Origin: a virus | Virus record (IMG/VR): IMGVR_UViG_3300045988_154156 | Direction: 5' to 3' (one strand) | Length of the DNA stretch: 64,000 bases | Part shown: positions 41,283-46,465 of the stretch, piece after piece | Layout of the letters: every line of letters begins with the position of its first letter | Position numbering within the stretch: the stretch's first letter is position 1 | Notes under the pieces: generated by a model | Databases searched by the model: none | Seen by the model: only the letters and a program-made list of their open reading frames with translations | Told to the model about the DNA's origin: nothing | Position numbers and translations under genes: made by a program

Positions 41283-41813
41283 ATGAGAATGTTAATTGTT
41301 ATTGATATGCAGAATGATTTCGTTACTGGGCGACTTGGTAGTAAAGAAGCTCAGCAAACTGTCCCTCGAATTGAAGAGCGTATTAAAGAATATCTCAAAA
41401 ATGGAGATACTGTTCTTTTTACAAAAGATACACATAAAGAAAATTATTTAGATACTCTTGAAGGTCATTATCTTCCTGTCGTTCATTGTATTGAAGACAC
41501 AGACGGTTGGGAAATTGTACCTCAGCTTGCCCCTTATGCACAGTATATTCTTTATAAGAATAAATTTGGTTATGTAGATTTAGCAAACGATAGTCTTATT
41601 ATGACTAATACTTATTTTTCTAAAGATAAATGTATCAGTATTGAACTTGTTGGTGTTTGTACTGATATTTGTGTTGTTTCTAATGCTTTAATTCTTAAAG
41701 CAACTACTGATATTCCTATTTATGTTAAAGCAGATTGCTGCGCTGGCACCACTCCTCAAAAGCATATGGAAGCATTGGACGTTATGAAATCTTGTCAAGT
41801 GGAGGTAATTTAA
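41283..41813 (+). CDS. pncA: Isochorismatase-family nicotinamidase (PncA-like).
   Basis: IVIDMQNDF and GVCTDICV are the catalytic Asp and Cys motifs. Confidence 0.6.
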   Translation: MRMLIVIDMQNDFVTGRLGSKEAQQTVPRIEERIKEYLKNGDTVLFTKDTHKENYLDTLEGHYLPVVHCIEDTDGWEIVPQLAPYAQYILYKNKFGYVDLANDSLIMTNTYFSKDKCISIELVGVCTDICVVSNALILKATTDIPIYVKADCCAGTTPQKHMEALDVMKSCQVEVI

Positions 41814-42650
41814 ATGTTCCGTATTAAAGGTTATGAGTTTGAGATTCACTATACTAATCAGACTTTCCCCGATGGCACTCTCAATCTGAACGGTATGGAT
41901 TTGACCGGCTGTACTAGGATTGAATGGTATTATGATAATGATGCAGAGCTTTTTACTCTGATTTGTTTAGCAAAGAAATGTGCAGAACATAATTGCCGTC
42001 CTATTCTTTATATGCCTTATGTTCCTAATGCTCGCATGGATAGAGTTAAGAAAGAAAGCGATACTTTTACTTTGAAGTATTTCTGCGATATTATTAACTC
42101 TCTTAATTTTTTGAGTGTTATGGTACTTGATGTTCATTCTAATGTGGCCGCAGCTCTTCTTGATAGATGTATTGTCATTGAACCTACTAATTATATTAGA
42201 GAAGCAGTTAATCAAGTATATCTTCTTACTGGCGGCAATGAAGGATATAGCCGCAAAGAAGTAATGAATAAATTTATTACTTTTTATCCTGATGAAGGAG
42301 CTATGAAGCGTTATTCTTCTCTTTTGGATTTTCCTTATGCTTTTGGTATCAAAAAGCGTGATTGGGAAACGGGTAATATTCTCGGTCTTGAGGTTATGAA
42401 TAAAGAGATTGTCAAGGATAAGAATATTCTTATTATTGATGATATTTGTTCAAAAGGTGGTACTTTCTATTATGCAGCTAAAGCTCTTAAAGAGCTTGGA
42501 GCGCACAGTATTTATCTTTATGTAACTCATTGTGAAAAGACAATTACTTCTGGAAATATTTATTACGGAAATGAAATTGCACAGATTTTTACAACTAATA
42601 GCATCTGGCGGGATGAAAATGATCCTCGTGTAAAAATTCTTGAAGGTTAA
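41814..42650 (+). CDS. PRPP-synthetase-like phosphoribosyl pyrophosphokinase. By context it is a candidate ADP-ribose pyrophosphokinase (Adps) of a NARP1-type NAD+ reconstitution pathway.
   Basis: NILIIDDICSKGGTF is a PRTase/Prs-type PRPP-binding motif. The gene is adjacent to the NAMPT-like gene. Confidence 0.5.
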   Translation: MFRIKGYEFEIHYTNQTFPDGTLNLNGMDLTGCTRIEWYYDNDAELFTLICLAKKCAEHNCRPILYMPYVPNARMDRVKKESDTFTLKYFCDIINSLNFLSVMVLDVHSNVAAALLDRCIVIEPTNYIREAVNQVYLLTGGNEGYSRKEVMNKFITFYPDEGAMKRYSSLLDFPYAFGIKKRDWETGNILGLEVMNKEIVKDKNILIIDDICSKGGTFYYAAKALKELGAHSIYLYVTHCEKTITSGNIYYGNEIAQIFTTNSIWRDENDPRVKILEG

Positions 42651-42663
42651 TATGATAAAATCA

Positions 42664-42716
42664 AAGGAGTAATTAAATATTACTCCTTTGATTTTTTTAT
42701 AAAAATATGATATAAT
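42664..42716 (+). promoter_or_regulatory. Terminator hairpin (AAAGGAGTAATTAAATATTACTCCTTT) fused to a promoter (TTGATT - 17 - TATAAT).
   Basis: Seen directly. Confidence 0.65.
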
Positions 42717-42748
42717 ATTTATAGAAAATTAAGAAAGGAATAAATAAA

Positions 42749-44720: not shown

Positions 44721-44721
44721 T

Positions 44722-45522
44722 ATGCGTACTCTTATTTATCCTATTGCTGAAGATATTAATGTTGAAATTAATCACATTAAAGACTGGATTAAGAATTATT
44801 TTGTAGAGAATGGTCCTGATTGTAAAGCGATTATTGGACTAAGTGGCGGCAAGGACAGCACTGTCGCAGCGAAGCTTTGTGTTGAAGCTCTTGGTAAAGA
44901 TAAGGTTATCGGTGTCTATATGCCACAGGGTAAGCAGCATGATATTGATATTGCGCATGAAGTTGGTCAGTATCTCCAGATTCAGACTATTGAAGTAAAT
45001 ATTGGTAAGATTTGTGATACTTTTTATGAAAGTTTCGATAATGCTTTTCCCTTTGATGATGTAAGAGAAAATTCGGTAGTTACATCCAACAGTCCAGCAA
45101 GAATTCGTATGTCTGTTCTTTATGCGATCGCAGGTATGCTTCATGGTCGAGTTGTTAATACTTGTAATGCTTCTGAGGACTTTGTAGGTTATTCTACTAA
45201 GTTTGGTGATTCTGCGGGCGATTTTTCTCCTTTGAGTGATTATACTGTTCATGCTGTGAAAGCTATTGGTTATGCTCTTGGTATTCCGGCTAAGTTTATT
45301 GATAAAGCTCCTGAAGATGGCCTGAGCGGTAAAACTGATGAAGACAATCTTGGTTTTACTTATGAGGTACTTGATACCTTCCTCGAGACTGGCACTCCTC
45401 CTGAAGATTATGAAGTTTATAAAAATATTATGGAACGTCATAAGAGAAATATTCATAAGGTTAGACCTATGCCAATGTGCAGCCGAGTTGGTCCTTCTCA
45501 GGGGACGTGTTGGGAGTTTTAA
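44722..45522 (+). CDS. nadE: NH3-dependent NAD+ synthetase (NadE-like, PP-loop ATPase).
   Basis: GLSGGKDS is the PP-loop motif. The length of 266 aa fits. Confidence 0.65.
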   Translation: MRTLIYPIAEDINVEINHIKDWIKNYFVENGPDCKAIIGLSGGKDSTVAAKLCVEALGKDKVIGVYMPQGKQHDIDIAHEVGQYLQIQTIEVNIGKICDTFYESFDNAFPFDDVRENSVVTSNSPARIRMSVLYAIAGMLHGRVVNTCNASEDFVGYSTKFGDSAGDFSPLSDYTVHAVKAIGYALGIPAKFIDKAPEDGLSGKTDEDNLGFTYEVLDTFLETGTPPEDYEVYKNIMERHKRNIHKVRPMPMCSRVGPSQGTCWEF

Positions 45523-45525
45523 TTT

Positions 45526-46029
45526 ATGAAACACCAAAAACGTTGGAAATGGATGATTGGTTTTGGTATACTAGGAACAATTGTTGGAATTTCTGACTTT
45601 AATTTTAAAATAATTATTTTTTATGCTTTATGGACAATTATTAGTTTTATTTGTTTTAAAAATAATGTAATTATTTTCCCCGATAAAGAAAAAAATAAAA
45701 CTAATAAGAATTATAATACAAATAATTTACAAAAAGCAGAAAAAATAAATAATGTTGAAACTTTAGTTAGTTATGGAAGATTACCTACTGATGAAGAGAA
45801 AAGAAAAGAACGTAATAAAATGACTAAAAAATTACGCGAAGAAATTTTATTACGAGATAATTATACTTGTAAAAAATGTGGCTTATCTCGATATGTTGAA
45901 CCTAATTTAAACCTTCATGTAGATCATATTATTCCTATAGCTAAAGGTGGAAAAACAGTTAAAGAAAATTTACAAACTTTATGTTGGAAATGTAATTTAT
46001 CCAAAGGAGATAAATTAGAAAATGATTGA
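45526..46029 (+). CDS. HNH endonuclease with an N-terminal membrane segment.
   Basis: CKKCG ... HVDHIIPIAKGG ... NLQTLCWKCN is an HNH motif. Confidence 0.6.
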   Translation: MKHQKRWKWMIGFGILGTIVGISDFNFKIIIFYALWTIISFICFKNNVIIFPDKEKNKTNKNYNTNNLQKAEKINNVETLVSYGRLPTDEEKRKERNKMTKKLREEILLRDNYTCKKCGLSRYVEPNLNLHVDHIIPIAKGGKTVKENLQTLCWKCNLSKGDKLEND

Positions 46030-46465
46030 TAGTTTTAAAAACAAATATTCTTTTTTAAGCAATTATGAATTGAGTCCTTTCACAGTAAATGGAGTAGTGT
46101 TCCCTACAATGGAACACTACTTTCAAGCGATGAAAGCGACTAATCAGGAAGATCTTTTAGAAATTGCTAACGCTCCTACACCAGGCCAAGCAAAACGATT
46201 AGGTCGAAAGGTTAAGATTAGACCTGATTGGGAATACGTCAAAAAGGATATTATGCTTGAAGGATTGCGCAAGAAATTTGCTATTCCTGAGTTAAGGCAG
46301 AAACTTCTTGATACTGGAGATGCTTACCTTGAAGAAGGTAATACCTGGCATGATAATTATTGGGGTGTGTGTCATTGCGTCGAATGCCAAGATGTATTAG
46401 CGAAAAATAATTTAGGACTTTTACTTATGAAAGTAAGAGAGGAGATCCAAAATGAGTGTTCCTGA
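46022..46465 (+). CDS. NADAR/YbiA-like (DUF1768) domain protein, ADP-ribose or NAD related.
   Basis: SNYELSPFTVNGVVFPTMEHYFQAMK ... NTWHDNYWGVC fits the NADAR family pattern. Confidence 0.45.
   Translation: MIDSFKNKYSFLSNYELSPFTVNGVVFPTMEHYFQAMKATNQEDLLEIANAPTPGQAKRLGRKVKIRPDWEYVKKDIMLEGLRKKFAIPELRQKLLDTGDAYLEEGNTWHDNYWGVCHCVECQDVLAKNNLGLLLMKVREEIQNECS

What the first reader, a model, noticed from the sequence alone, without database searches (positions are those of the whole stretch)
41283..46465. NAD+ reconstitution and ADP-ribose processing island: PncA, Prs-like Adps, NAMPT-like Namat, macro domain, NadE, NADAR
Adjacent genes encode a PRPP-synthetase-like pyrophosphokinase and a NAMPT-family phosphoribosyltransferase. 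This pair was recently shown in phages to rebuild NAD+ from ADP-ribose and nicotinamide (the NARP1 pathway), which counters NAD+-depleting defences such as Thoeris, DSR, SIR2 and TIR systems. They are flanked by a nicotinamidase, a macro domain, an NH3-dependent NAD synthetase and a NADAR domain, with an HNH endonuclease inserted. The combination is larger than the described two-gene NARP1 and may salvage several NAD+ breakdown products.
Basis: partly seen in the sequence, partly recalled or inferred. Interest (0 to 1): 0.7.

Follow-up and report, generated by a model that had tools for sequence, protein, structure and literature searches.

The report
Phage NAD+ rebuilding module, nicotinic-acid variant
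A gut phage carries the known two-enzyme kit for rebuilding NAD+ after bacterial defences destroy it, but in a widespread variant always joined to a nicotinamidase and an NAD synthetase, which suggests NAD+ is rebuilt through nicotinic acid by a reaction not yet described.

Summary
Seven contiguous + strand genes at 41283-46465 encode PncA-like nicotinamidase, Adps-like pyrophosphokinase, Namat-like transferase, Macro (Adpp-like), NH3-dependent NadE, an HNH endonuclease and NADAR.

Adps+Namat is NARP1 (2024), and with the Macro phosphatase it is NARP1-AP (2026), so that core is known.

The new part is that this Namat belongs to one distinct subfamily. The aspartate that hydrogen-bonds the nicotinamide amide (SPbetaL1 D215, human NAMPT D219) is Ala or Ser, the neighbouring contact A242 is Ser, and the adenine-clamp helix usually carries a 9-26 aa insertion.

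Among 224 unique viral loci, those with at least 4 kb on both sides split cleanly. Of 64 loci of this subfamily, 64 have PncA and 63 have NadE. Of 103 Asp-type and 7 Glu-type loci, none has either. Twenty-nine gut Clostridia MAG or genome loci and a Ser-type locus fit the same rule, in three gene orders. No PncB or NadD is present.

Best reading (about 0.5): a deamidated NARP1, in which Nam becomes nicotinic acid, nicotinic acid plus ADPR-PP gives NaAD, and NadE converts NaAD to NAD+. This is not tested biochemically.

NADAR and HNH are lineage-specific add-ons. I found no description of this module in the literature searched.

The parts
40910..40972 (+). Terminator-like hairpin (40910-40943) followed by a promoter-like site, TTGATT-17-TATAAT with TG (40944-40972). 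Possible upstream boundary of the transcription unit.
   Evidence: Consensus scan only. The promoter count is not above the shuffled expectation; the terminator count is 6 against 2.7 expected. Suggestive, not shown.
41283..41813 (+). PncA-like nicotinamidase, 176 aa. Predicted reaction: nicotinamide to nicotinic acid plus NH3.
   Evidence: Pfam Isochorismatase 95 bits. The best solved relative is P. horikoshii pyrazinamidase/nicotinamidase 1IM5/1ILW. The catalytic triad D8-K94-C130 and the metal ligands D49, H51 and H68 (the PVVHC motif) are all conserved. Present in 64 of 64 fully flanked loci of the non-acidic Namat subfamily and in 0 of 103 Asp-type loci.
41814..42650 (+). Adps-like ADP-ribose pyrophosphokinase, 278 aa, PRPS fold. 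Predicted reaction: ADPR plus ATP to ADPR-PP plus AMP.
   Evidence: phrog_619 228 bits, compared with 248-285 bits for the validated SPbetaL1 and ICP1 Adps. TIGR01251 78 bits, below the 113 cutoff, as for the validated Adps at 98-106 bits. 34% identity and 132 bits to SPbetaL1 Adps, against at most 49 bits to any solved Prs. In ICP1 numbering, F18, R87, H121, D161, K185, D212 and D213 are invariant; the window equivalents are F18, R74, H108, D160, K180, D209 and D210. There is no C-terminal alpha11-alpha12. The PP loop DDICSKGGTF resembles SPbetaL1 DDLSSFGGTF.
42749..44263 (+). Namat-like transferase of the non-acidic (A212/S239) subfamily, 504 aa. Predicted reaction: nicotinic acid plus ADPR-PP to NaAD plus PPi.
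   Evidence: Best PDB sequence match is SPbetaL1 Namat 9w5x/9w5w at 389 bits, against 140 bits for human NAMPT. AF2 model pLDDT 85.9. Best fold match is 9w5x, TM 0.88/0.91. The catalytic core is kept: D10, Y12, F186, R189, H242, R306, D308. The clamp residues R37, F380 and T412-R413-D414 are kept. SPbetaL1 D215 is A212 here (codon 43382-43384) and A242 is S239 (codon 43463-43465).
43898..43978 (+). Insertion inside the Namat selectivity-clamp helix (residues about 384-410): GSFSFM[CLETLDDVDGYFASHTAAPLPKP]TYNPYTRD.
   Evidence: HMMER splits the alignment to 9w5x exactly here. Insertions of 9-26 aa are present in all 80 close relatives and absent from SPbetaL1 and Kirov. AF2 predicts a beta-hairpin, strands 384-388 and 406-410, with a low-confidence tip at 390-403.
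44265..44720 (+). Macro-domain protein, Adpp-like. Predicted reaction: ADP-ribose-1''-phosphate to ADPR.
   Evidence: PF01661 27 bits. phrog_335 142 bits, compared with 174 bits for the Adpp orthologue of Thalassavirus Athena gp176, which sits between Adps and Namat. 25% identity, 44.7 bits, E 3e-11 to Athena gp176 over the whole domain. Present in 54 of 64 subfamily loci and 16 of 103 Asp-type loci. The start is set by GGAGA-N6-ATG.
44722..45522 (+). NH3-dependent NAD+ synthetase NadE, 266 aa, no glutaminase domain. Predicted reaction: NaAD plus ATP plus NH3 to NAD+.
   Evidence: PF02540 183 bits. TIGR00552 172 bits against a cutoff of 63.65. P-loop S41-GGKDS-46. Best solved relatives are NH3-dependent NadE 2e18 (110 bits) and Francisella 3fiu (108 bits). 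Present in 63 of 64 subfamily loci and 0 of 103 Asp-type loci. Only 48 of 50,697 phage records have any NadE homologue.
45526..46029 (+). Free-standing HNH (homing-type) endonuclease. A recent insertion, not part of the pathway.
   Evidence: PF01844 51 bits. The 99%-identical relative L003 goes directly from the NadE stop to the NADAR start. The window has about 500 extra bp exactly at that junction. Absent from all other related loci.
46022..46465 (+). NADAR-domain protein. A lineage-specific accessory, probably an ADP-ribosyl N-glycohydrolase that releases ADPR.
   Evidence: PF08719 95 bits. TIGR02464 98 bits against a cutoff of 73.7. Solved relatives are YbiA 2b3w (73 bits) and NADAR 8bau (44 bits). 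Within 8 kb of Namat in only 4 of 71 subfamily loci, but fused to NadE in one ORF in L342.
46636..46662 (+). Terminator-like hairpin, 10-bp stem with 6 GC pairs and a T-rich tail. Possible downstream boundary.
   Evidence: Pattern scan only.

Best explanation
The module is a deamidated variant of the phage NAD+ reconstitution pathway NARP1/NARP1-AP. After a host NADase (SIR2, TIR, SEFIR, or RES) cleaves NAD+, the proposed steps are:
1. The Macro protein converts any ADPR-1''-phosphate to ADPR.
2. Adps pyrophosphorylates ADPR to ADPR-PP.
3. PncA hydrolyses the released nicotinamide to nicotinic acid plus NH3.
4. The Namat-like enzyme has an amide-recognition pocket remodelled from D to A/S and from A to S. 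It couples nicotinic acid to ADPR-PP to give nicotinic acid adenine dinucleotide (NaAD).
5. The NH3-dependent NadE amidates NaAD to NAD+.

Adps plus this Namat thus replace PncB plus NadD of the Preiss-Handler route. The net cost is one extra ATP compared with NARP1.

What is shown: gene identities, family memberships, the strict co-occurrence, and the substitutions focused on the active site.

What is inferred: the nicotinic-acid specificity, NaAD as the intermediate, and the counter-defence role in this phage.
For: 1. Co-occurrence. Among 224 unique viral loci, the fully flanked loci of the non-acidic Namat subfamily (n=64) have PncA 64/64, Adps 64/64 and NadE 63/64. Asp-type loci (n=103) have PncA 0, NadE 0 and Adps 101. 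Glu-type loci (n=7) have none of PncA or NadE. Twenty-nine more MAG/genome loci fit the rule. A Ser215-type locus, fetched afterwards as a test of the rule, has NadE-PncA-Adps-Namat. Three different gene orders keep the four genes together.

2. Focused substitutions. Across about 490 aligned positions, only four separate the subfamily from canonical Namat: 215, 242, 239 and 33. Positions 215 and 242 are direct nicotinamide contacts in the 9w5x structure. All ribose, phosphate and adenine contacts except Y396 are conserved (PMC12774641).

3. Known role of the aspartate. It defines nicotinamide specificity. In human NAMPT, Asp219 hydrogen-bonds the amide (PMC12143786), D219S switches substrate affinity and D219A loses activity (PMC4919578, citing Khan 2006). 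In SPbetaL1 Namat, D215A lowers NAD+ output 8-fold (PMC12774641).

4. Pathway logic. PncA makes nicotinic acid and NadE consumes a deamido dinucleotide, yet no PncB or NadD is found in the 64-kb window or in 101 related loci. Bacillus phage G has PncA and NadE without Adps/Namat, and it does carry PncB and NadD.

5. One lineage. The subfamily is a single clean bipartition in an NJ tree built without the diagnostic columns: 52 of 52 non-acidic sequences, with no acidic sequence inside.

6. NadE is the NH3-dependent type, which matches the NH3 released by PncA.
Against: - There is no biochemical or genetic test of any protein from this subfamily.
- The association may trace to a single ancestral event in one phage/host habitat (gut Clostridia), so the loci are not independent.
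- Ala at position 215 removes repulsion of a carboxylate but offers no obvious positive recognition. Ser239 and Arg189 are only candidates for that role.
- The longer route costs an extra ATP, and its selective advantage is unexplained.
- Removing nicotinamide could even relieve product inhibition of SIR2-type NADases.
- NadE scores equally well against Francisella NadE (3fiu). From my own knowledge, that enzyme prefers NaMN, so NaAD versus NaMN cannot be decided from sequence.
- The clamp aromatic Y396 is replaced and the helix is interrupted, so recognition of ADPR-PP is itself inferred.
Confidence: 0.5

Rival explanations
1. The module is canonical NARP1-AP plus unrelated salvage helpers. 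The Namat-like enzyme still uses nicotinamide plus ADPR-PP to make NAD+ directly, or accepts both nicotinamide and nicotinic acid. PncA and NadE merely boost the host Preiss-Handler pathway through host PncB and NadD.
For: The Adps, Namat and Macro family memberships are solid. The catalytic core and most clamp residues are intact. SPbetaL1 D215A keeps residual activity (PMC12774641).
Against: It does not explain why PncA and NadE occur only with the D-to-A/S, A-to-S Namat subfamily and never with 103 Asp-type or 7 Glu-type fully flanked loci. It does not explain why the only subfamily-defining substitutions sit in the amide pocket. A phage nicotinamidase would compete with a nicotinamide-dependent Namat for its substrate.
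Confidence: 0.22
2. The module is a phage-encoded PRPP-based deamidated route. The Prs-like protein makes PRPP. The NAMPT-like protein acts as a nicotinate phosphoribosyltransferase and gives NaMN. NaMN is then converted by host NadD plus phage NadE, or is amidated to NMN by a Francisella-type NadE.
For: SPbetaL1 Namat can use PRPP in vitro (bioRxiv 10.1101/2024.02.11.579819). The clamp helix is interrupted and Y396 is lost. NadE is as close to Francisella NadE 3fiu as to other NadE structures.
Against: The Prs-like protein groups with validated ADPR pyrophosphokinases and scores below every NCBIfam Prs cutoff. SPbetaL1 Adps made no product from ribose-5-phosphate (same preprint). The clamp residues R37, F380 and TRD are conserved across the subfamily. 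No adenylyltransferase is present in the window or in all but one related locus.
Confidence: 0.13
3. The genes are ordinary auxiliary metabolic genes that raise NAD+ supply for phage replication in niacin-dependent gut Clostridia. They have no role against NAD+-depleting defence.
For: The predicted hosts are gut Clostridia. The module sits among nucleotide and RNA-repair type genes. No defence system has been tested.
Against: Adps uses ADPR, which accumulates only after NAD+ cleavage. NARP1 homologues are experimentally counter-defence in E. coli, Bacillus and Vibrio phages (bioRxiv 10.1101/2024.02.11.579819; PMC13586617). The co-resident Macro and NADAR genes process ADP-ribose derivatives (bioRxiv 10.64898/2026.01.28.702374; PMC11257639).
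Confidence: 0.1

Closest known systems
NARP1 (Adps + Namat; Osterman et al., bioRxiv 10.1101/2024.02.11.579819; structures in PMC12774641 and PMC13586617)
   Same: An adjacent Prs-like Adps and a NAMPT-like transferase from the same PHROG families (619 and 448). The Adps catalytic Lys and acceptor residues are kept. The Namat catalytic core and most clamp residues are kept. The best sequence and fold match is SPbetaL1 Namat.
   Different: The amide-binding Asp215 is Ala (Ser in some relatives) and Ala242 is Ser. The clamp motif GSXxXxXxTRD is interrupted by a 9-26 aa hairpin. The pair is always accompanied by PncA and NadE, which no Asp-type NARP1 locus examined has.
NARP1-AP (Adps + Macro phosphatase Adpp + Namat; bioRxiv 10.64898/2026.01.28.702374)
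   Same: A single-domain Macro protein of phrog_335 sits inside the operon. It is homologous (E 3e-11) to the Adpp orthologue of a Thalassavirus. The Macro frequency in Asp-type loci here (16 of 103) matches the published 15%.
   Different: The Macro gene lies after Namat rather than between Adps and Namat. It is much more frequent in this subfamily (54 of 64). It is only 25% identical, and phosphatase activity is untested.
Preiss-Handler pathway (PncA, PncB, NadD, NadE), as encoded complete in Bacillus phage G
   Same: The same first enzyme (nicotinamidase) and last enzyme (NH3-dependent NAD synthetase). Nicotinic acid and NaAD are the proposed intermediates.
   Different: The middle enzymes PncB and NadD are absent. 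Adps plus the Namat-like transferase are proposed to bridge nicotinic acid to NaAD in one step, using ADPR-PP instead of PRPP plus ATP.
NARP2 (Nampt + NMNAT, phage KVP40) and NARP3 (PnuC + NadR; PMC13464706)
   Same: Phage-encoded restoration of NAD+ against NAD+-depleting defences.
   Different: No NMNAT, NadR or PnuC is found in the window. The chemistry is based on ADPR rather than on PRPP or nicotinamide riboside.
Phage NADAR anti-DarT factor AdfN (T4 gp30.3; PMC11257639)
   Same: A small stand-alone NADAR-domain protein in a phage, with a weak Pfam Phage_30_3 match.
   Different: Here it is adjacent to NadE, and in one relative it is fused to NadE. It is closer to E. coli YbiA than to the solved DarT-associated NADAR. 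No DarT-related evidence was obtained.

Membership tests
NARP1 - Adps | Member of the phage Adps clade rather than housekeeping Prs | tested here: met
   phrog_619 228 bits, alongside validated SPbetaL1 (248) and ICP1 (285). All three fall below the TIGR01251 cutoff. 132 bits to SPbetaL1 Adps, against at most 49 bits to any solved Prs. No rooted tree with canonical Prs was built.
NARP1 - Adps | Catalytic Lys (ICP1 K185 / SPbetaL1 K162), acceptor residues R87, H121, D161, D212, D213 and adenine-stacking F18; about 280 aa without alpha11-alpha12 | tested here: met
   All are invariant in alignment A3. The window equivalents are K180, R74, H108, D160, D209, D210 and F18. Length is 278 aa. F92 and D216 are not conserved, but they are not conserved in the validated SPbetaL1 Adps either.
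NARP1 - Adps | Pyrophosphorylates ADPR and not ribose-5-phosphate | not testable with these tools
   Needs an enzyme assay.
NARP1 - Adps/Namat pair | Adps gene within 10 genes of a Namat gene | tested here: met
   The genes are adjacent, with a 98-nt spacer. Adps is present in 64 of 64 flanked subfamily loci.
NARP1 - Namat | Closer to validated Namat than to Nampt in sequence and fold | tested here: met
   389 bits to 9w5x, 303 bits to HdNadV and 140 bits to human NAMPT. Foldseek TM 0.88/0.91 to 9w5x.
NARP1 - Namat | Nicotinamide pocket with Asp215 hydrogen-bonding the amide and Ala242 | tested here: not met
   The window has A212 and S239. All 80 close loci, all 120 close proteins and 51 of 150 family representatives are non-acidic at position 215.
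NARP1 - Namat | Uninterrupted selectivity-clamp helix motif GS-X-phi-X-phi-X-phi-TRD, with aromatics at positions 3 and 7 | tested here: not met
   The sequence is GSFSFMC, then a 23-aa insertion, then TYNPYTRD. Position 3 is Phe and position 7 is Cys. An aromatic residue precedes TRD and might substitute.
NARP1 - Namat | Clamp loop Arg40 and the catalytic core (D13, Y15, F189, R192, His, R306, D308) | tested here: met
   The window has R37, D10, Y12, F186, R189, H242, R306 and D308.
NARP1-AP - Adpp | Poa1p-like Macro-domain protein encoded in the NARP1 operon | tested here: met
   Pfam Macro plus phrog_335. E 3e-11 to Athena gp176, which belongs to the same genus as phage Gary and has the same Adps-Macro-Namat order.
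NARP1-AP - Adpp | ADPR-1''-phosphate phosphatase activity and the catalytic residues mutated in the study | not tested
   The residues are not listed in the text held, and the activity needs an assay. The DarG model NF048014 also gives a weak hit (51 bits against a cutoff of 250), so a de-ADP-ribosylase role is not excluded.
Nicotinamidase (PncA) | Asp-Lys-Cys catalytic triad and Asp-His-His metal site | tested here: met
   D8, K94 and C130; D49, H51 and H68, aligned to P. horikoshii PncA 1IM5. The NCBIfam PncA equivalog is far below its cutoff (36 against 174), so the assignment rests on motifs and context.
NH3-dependent NAD+ synthetase (NadE) | NAD_synthase domain above curated cutoffs, SGGxDS P-loop, no glutaminase domain | tested here: met
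   TIGR00552 172 bits against 63.65. PF02540 183 bits. SGGKDS at residues 41-46. 266 aa.
NH3-dependent NAD+ synthetase (NadE) | Substrate is NaAD rather than NaMN | tested here: inconclusive
   Nearly equal scores to P. horikoshii NadE (110 bits) and Francisella NadE (108 bits).
NADAR | NADAR domain above curated cutoffs | tested here: met
   PF08719 95 bits against 35.1. TIGR02464 98 bits against 73.7.
NARP2 / canonical Preiss-Handler | An NMN or NaMN adenylyltransferase, and PncB for Preiss-Handler | tested here: not met
   No HIGH-motif adenylyltransferase is found in six frames of the window. tblastn with phage G PncB and NadD finds nothing in the window or in 101 related loci. The motif and tblastn searches have limited sensitivity.

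The most novel reading that the evidence does not exclude
A large Namat subfamily in gut Clostridia phages catalyses a reaction not yet described: nicotinic acid plus ADPR-pyrophosphate gives NaAD. Together with phage PncA, Adps and NadE, and usually the Adpp phosphatase, it forms a self-contained four- to five-enzyme deamidated NAD+ reconstitution pathway. This pathway fuses NARP1 chemistry with the ends of the Preiss-Handler route.
Probability: 0.5. Interest if true: 0.8.

Novelty: new variant of a known kind. Interest (0 to 1): 0.68.

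Why it matters
NAD+ depletion is one of the commonest bacterial anti-phage strategies, and NARP pathways are the main known metabolic counter-measure.

- If this subfamily uses nicotinic acid, it adds a new enzymatic reaction and a new intermediate (NaAD) to phage counter-defence.
- It would show that the pyridine specificity of Namat can be read from two residues, which would improve annotation of thousands of 'nicotinamide phosphoribosyltransferase' genes.
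- It raises the question of what pressure makes a costlier, deamidated route preferable. Candidates are loss of nicotinamide, host nicotinamidase activity, or a defence that defeats canonical NARP1.
- The module is abundant in human and animal gut viromes, with clusters of hundreds to more than a thousand member sequences. It is therefore relevant to phage-host dynamics in the microbiome.
- The prediction can be tested directly with four purified proteins.

Tried and rejected
- Megablast of the whole island against 50,697 phage records found nothing. Only protein-level searches were informative.
- The solved ICP1 Adps structures were not in the PDB sequence copy. I fetched the ICP1 gene from GenBank instead.
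- IMG/VR scans for close relatives of three divergent representatives were uninformative. P0150 and P0135 (non-acidic, no insertion) returned only distant loci, and P0208 (non-acidic, Ser215) returned nothing. The edges of the subfamily are therefore sampled only by Phass-1 (no insertion) and by one metagenome contig of a Ser215-type member, P0144/L346.
- I considered that PncA and NadE might be missed in Asp-type loci because my HMMs were built from this clade. I rejected this because tblastn finds NadE in only 48 and PncA in only 16 of 50,697 phage records, against 2,020 records with a Namat/Nampt homologue.
- I considered NADAR a core part of the module. I rejected this on frequency: 4 of 71 subfamily loci.
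- I considered the Macro to be a DarG-type antitoxin. This is not excluded, but the Adpp family link (phrog_335, operon position) is stronger.
- I considered NARP3, but only one related locus pair (L032/L033) has a NadR-like gene.
- The AF2 model gives no coordinates through these tools, so pocket geometry and the position of the aromatic residue before TRD could not be measured.

Full report
**1. Observation.**
The window carries seven contiguous + strand ORFs at exactly the reported coordinates:
- 41283-41813 (176 aa)
- 41814-42650 (278 aa)
- 42749-44263 (504 aa)
- 44226/44265-44720
- 44722-45522 (266 aa)
- 45526-46029 (167 aa)
- 46022-46465 (147 aa)

- Isochorismatase: 95 bits.
- Prs-like: phrog_619 228 bits. 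Every NCBIfam ribose-phosphate diphosphokinase model scores below its cutoff.
- NAMPT family: phrog_448 513 bits.
- Macro: PF01661 27 bits, phrog_335 142 bits.
- NAD_synthase: 183 bits, and TIGR00552 172 bits against a cutoff of 63.65.
- HNH: 51 bits.
- NADAR: 95 bits.

The Macro gene most likely starts at ATG 44265, which has GGAGA 6 nt upstream. Strong terminator-like hairpins at 40910-40943 and 46636-46662 bracket the cluster. Promoter-like TTGATT-17-TATAAT sites follow both hairpins and also sit in the Adps-Namat spacer. These are pattern matches only.

The surrounding window is a phage genome, with all genes on one strand. It has six tRNAs at 24.3-26.5 kb. RNA-repair-type genes lie on both sides of the module: RNase T, an RNA-ligase-like gene, a P-loop kinase and three metallophosphatases.

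**2. The known core.**
The literature defines three relevant systems:
- NARP1: Adps converts ADPR plus ATP to ADPR-PP, and Namat converts ADPR-PP plus nicotinamide to NAD+ (bioRxiv 10.1101/2024.02.11.579819).
- NARP1-AP: NARP1 plus a Poa1p-like Macro phosphatase, Adpp, which converts ADPR-1''P (the product of the aRES defence) to ADPR. The Macro gene is present in 15% of NARP1 operons (bioRxiv 10.64898/2026.01.28.702374).
- NARP3: PnuC plus NadR (PMC13464706).

The window's Prs-like protein behaves like validated Adps proteins.
- It shares phrog_619 with SPbetaL1 and ICP1 Adps, and all three fall below the TIGR01251 cutoff.
- It is 34% identical (132 bits) to SPbetaL1 Adps, against at most 49 bits to any solved Prs.
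- It is 278 aa long, without the C-terminal alpha11-alpha12.
- In an alignment with ICP1 Adps, the residues highlighted by the structure paper (PMC13586617) are invariant: F18, R87, H121, D161, catalytic K185, D212 and D213.

That paper also shows that the acceptor residues are shared with PRPS.

The NAMPT-like protein matches SPbetaL1 Namat (9w5x/9w5w) at 389 bits, against 140 bits for human NAMPT. An AlphaFold2 model (pLDDT 85.9) has 9w5x as its best fold match, TM 0.88/0.91.

The Macro protein shares phrog_335 with gp176 of Vibrio phage Athena. It aligns to gp176 over its whole length (E 3e-11). Athena is a Thalassavirus like phage Gary, and gp176 lies between Adps and Namat.

**3. What is different.**
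Aligned to SPbetaL1 Namat, the window protein has Ala at D215 and Ser at A242. Both are nicotinamide contacts in the crystal structure (PMC12774641). It also has a 23-aa insertion inside the selectivity-clamp helix motif, GSFSFM[...]TYNPYTRD. AF2 models this insertion as a beta-hairpin with a disordered tip.

- All 80 IMG/VR relatives (57-99% identity) share the two substitutions and an insertion of 9-26 aa. SPbetaL1 and Bacillus phage Kirov do not.
- All 120 closest proteins in the 5.8-billion-sequence collection are of this type.
- Among 150 representatives of 50%-identity clusters, 92 are D215/A242, 33 are A/S and 17 are S/S, with only a handful mixed.
- In an NJ tree built without the two diagnostic columns, the 52 non-acidic sequences form one clean bipartition.
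- A scan for specificity-determining positions finds only four positions that separate the groups: 215, 242, 239 and 33. Every other ligand contact is conserved in both groups, including clamp R40, F/Y392 and T398-R399-D400. The exception is Y396, which the insertion displaces.

**4. Linkage to PncA and NadE.**
I built HMMs for the module proteins and searched six-frame ORFs within 8 kb on either side of Namat in 224 unique viral loci. Counts below are for loci with at least 4 kb on both sides.

| Namat type | Loci | PncA | Adps | NadE | Macro |
|---|---|---|---|---|---|
| Non-acidic (A215/S242) | 64 | 64 | 64 | 63 | 54 |
| Asp215 | 103 | 0 | 101 | 0 | 16 |
| Glu215 | 7 | 0 | 7 | 0 | 0 |

The Macro fraction in Asp-type loci is 15.5%, which reproduces the published 15%.

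- Two gene orders occur among the viral loci: PncA-Adps-Namat-Macro-NadE, and Adps-Namat-Macro-NadE-PncA.
- Twenty-nine further loci come from GTDB genomes. Nearly all are gut MAGs of Clostridia, plus two isolates. All carry the same module and the same residues.
- As a test of the rule, I fetched the only available contig of a Ser215-type representative. It encodes NadE-PncA-Adps-Namat, a third gene order.
- The human-gut phage Phass-1 uses genetic code 15. It has the module with an A/S Namat that lacks the clamp insertion. The residue pair, not the insertion, therefore tracks with PncA and NadE.
- In the curated phage collection, NadE homologues occur in 48 records and PncA homologues in 16 of 50,697. 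Namat/Nampt homologues occur in 2,020.

PncA keeps the nicotinamidase triad (D8, K94, C130) and the metal site (D49, H51, H68). NadE is the short NH3-dependent type with an SGGKDS P-loop.

**5. Missing middle enzymes.**
No PncB or NadD/NMNAT is detectable in the 64-kb window or in 101 related loci. One locus pair has a NadR-like gene.

Bacillus phage G has PncA-like and NadE genes but no Adps or Namat. It does encode bona fide PncB (653 bits) and NadD (142 bits) between them. This is the pattern expected if Adps plus the modified Namat displace PncB plus NadD.

**6. Mechanism proposed.**
- Established knowledge: in NAMPT, Asp219 hydrogen-bonds the carboxamide and designates nicotinamide as the substrate (PMC12143786; PMC7096376). 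D219S switches substrate affinity and D219A abolishes activity (PMC4919578, citing Khan 2006). SPbetaL1 Namat D215A loses 8-fold in NAD+ output (PMC12774641).
- Inference: a whole subfamily that has replaced this Asp, changed the adjacent pocket residue to Ser, and become inseparable from a nicotinamidase and an NAD synthetase most plausibly uses nicotinic acid. The steps would be:
  1. PncA: nicotinamide to nicotinic acid plus NH3.
  2. Adps: ADPR to ADPR-PP.
  3. Namat-like enzyme: nicotinic acid plus ADPR-PP to NaAD.
  4. NadE: NaAD plus NH3 plus ATP to NAD+.
  5. Macro/Adpp supplies ADPR from ADPR-1''P.
- Net cost: one ATP more than NARP1.
- Why the detour pays is unknown. Untested ideas are trapping the pyridine as a charged acid, an irreversible last step, fast host nicotinamidase activity, or a defence that removes nicotinamide.

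I put this reading at about 0.5. Three rivals remain:
- Canonical or dual-specificity NARP1-AP with helper genes acting through the host pathway: 0.22.
- A PRPP/NaMN route: 0.13.
- Plain metabolic boosting with no counter-defence role: 0.1.

**7. Accessory genes.**
NADAR lies within 8 kb of Namat in only 4 of 71 subfamily loci. In one Oscillospiraceae MAG, however, it is fused to NadE in a single ORF, with NADAR at residues 4-140 and NadE at 147-388. Phage NADARs are known anti-DarTG1 ADP-ribosylglycohydrolases (PMC11257639). Their neighbourhood with phage NAD+ salvage genes has been noted before (PMC9503650). A role in releasing ADPR that can feed Adps is plausible but untested.

The HNH gene is a free-standing endonuclease inserted exactly between the NadE stop and the NADAR start. 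A 99%-identical relative lacks it.

**8. Novelty.**
Full-text searches for NARP1, Adps or Namat together with NadE, PncA, nicotinamidase, nicotinic acid, NaAD or deamido terms were run. I also ran term searches inside six papers: the five NARP-related papers (NARP1, the Namat structure, NARP1-AP/aRES, RyDEP, and the viral NAD+-ADPr survey) and the Phass-1 paper. None of these describes the module or the subfamily. The Phass-1 paper only lists 'nicotinamidase' in a table.

The library does not hold all journals, so prior description elsewhere cannot be excluded. I classify the finding as a new variant of a known kind.

**9. Caveats.**
- The loci are phylogenetically related and come mostly from gut habitats, so the contingency table is not a set of independent events.
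- HMM and tblastn sensitivity is finite.
- Host assignment rests on MAG binning.
- No coordinates were available to inspect the modelled pocket.

Noticed in passing
window 45526-46029; L003 about 10770: The HNH endonuclease gene is a clean insertion of about 500 bp between the NadE stop codon and the NADAR start codon. A 99%-identical IMG/VR relative lacks it. Its N-terminal 50 or so residues are strongly hydrophobic, which is unusual for an HNH homing endonuclease.
   Followed up: partly
L342 9498-10664: One ORF fuses NADAR (residues 4-140) to NadE (residues 147-388), directly downstream of Namat, in an Oscillospiraceae MAG from water deer cecum. This Rosetta-stone link ties NADAR to the module.
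   Followed up: partly
L185, L186, L191, L194, L206-L208, L211, L220, L221, L236: A third Namat type has Glu instead of Asp at position 215, with A242 kept. Adps lies downstream of Namat in these loci, and there is no PncA or NadE. In the NJ tree they fall in a 14-member clade that also holds two Asp-type sequences.
   Followed up: partly
P0002, P0030, P0054, P0097 (574-593 aa); P0124, P0202 and others (800-1114 aa): Many Namat homologues carry an extra segment of about 80 aa after window residue 317. Some representatives are 800-1100 aa long, which suggests inserted domains or inteins.
   Followed up: no
L084 (Phass-1, OQ749652) 4486-8924: A TAG-recoded (code 15) human-gut phage carries the same module. 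A 139-aa ORF with no Pfam match sits where the Macro gene lies elsewhere, and a NADAR gene lies 8.8 kb downstream.
   Followed up: partly
L032 12543-13300 (and its near-duplicate L033): A NadR-like ORF (HIGH-motif adenylyltransferase plus P-loop kinase, as in NARP3) lies about 4.9 kb downstream of the non-acidic Namat. Two NAD+ restoration routes may therefore coexist in this phage.
   Followed up: no
L034, L035: These are the only fully flanked non-acidic Namat loci with no NadE within 8 kb. PncA, Adps and a distant Macro gene are present.
   Followed up: no
L364 (Bacillus phage G, NC_023719) 200123-207372: The cultivated megaphage G encodes a complete canonical Preiss-Handler set (PncA-like gp275, PncB gp277, NadD gp281, NadE gp283) next to a NUDIX hydrolase and a KptA/Tpt1 RNA 2'-phosphotransferase. 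It has no Adps or Namat in this 15-kb stretch.
   Followed up: partly
window 14000-24000 and 24334-26471: A 10-kb stretch with 19-25% G+C holds only small ORFs, the largest 153 aa. It is followed by a cluster of six tRNA genes (Thr, Leu, Gly, Lys, Ala, Cys).
   Followed up: no
window 35584-39559 and 46705-49084: The module is flanked by RNA-repair-type genes: a weak RlaP-like nucleotidyltransferase match, metallophosphatases, an RNase T exonuclease, an RNA-ligase-like protein and an AAA_33 P-loop kinase. The Macro protein could alternatively serve Appr-1''-p processing in RNA repair.
   Followed up: partly
window 40944-40972, 42688-42716, 46660-46688: The same promoter-like sequence, TTGATT-17-TATAAT, occurs three times, twice immediately after strong terminator-like hairpins. 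This may be a phage promoter type.
   Followed up: no
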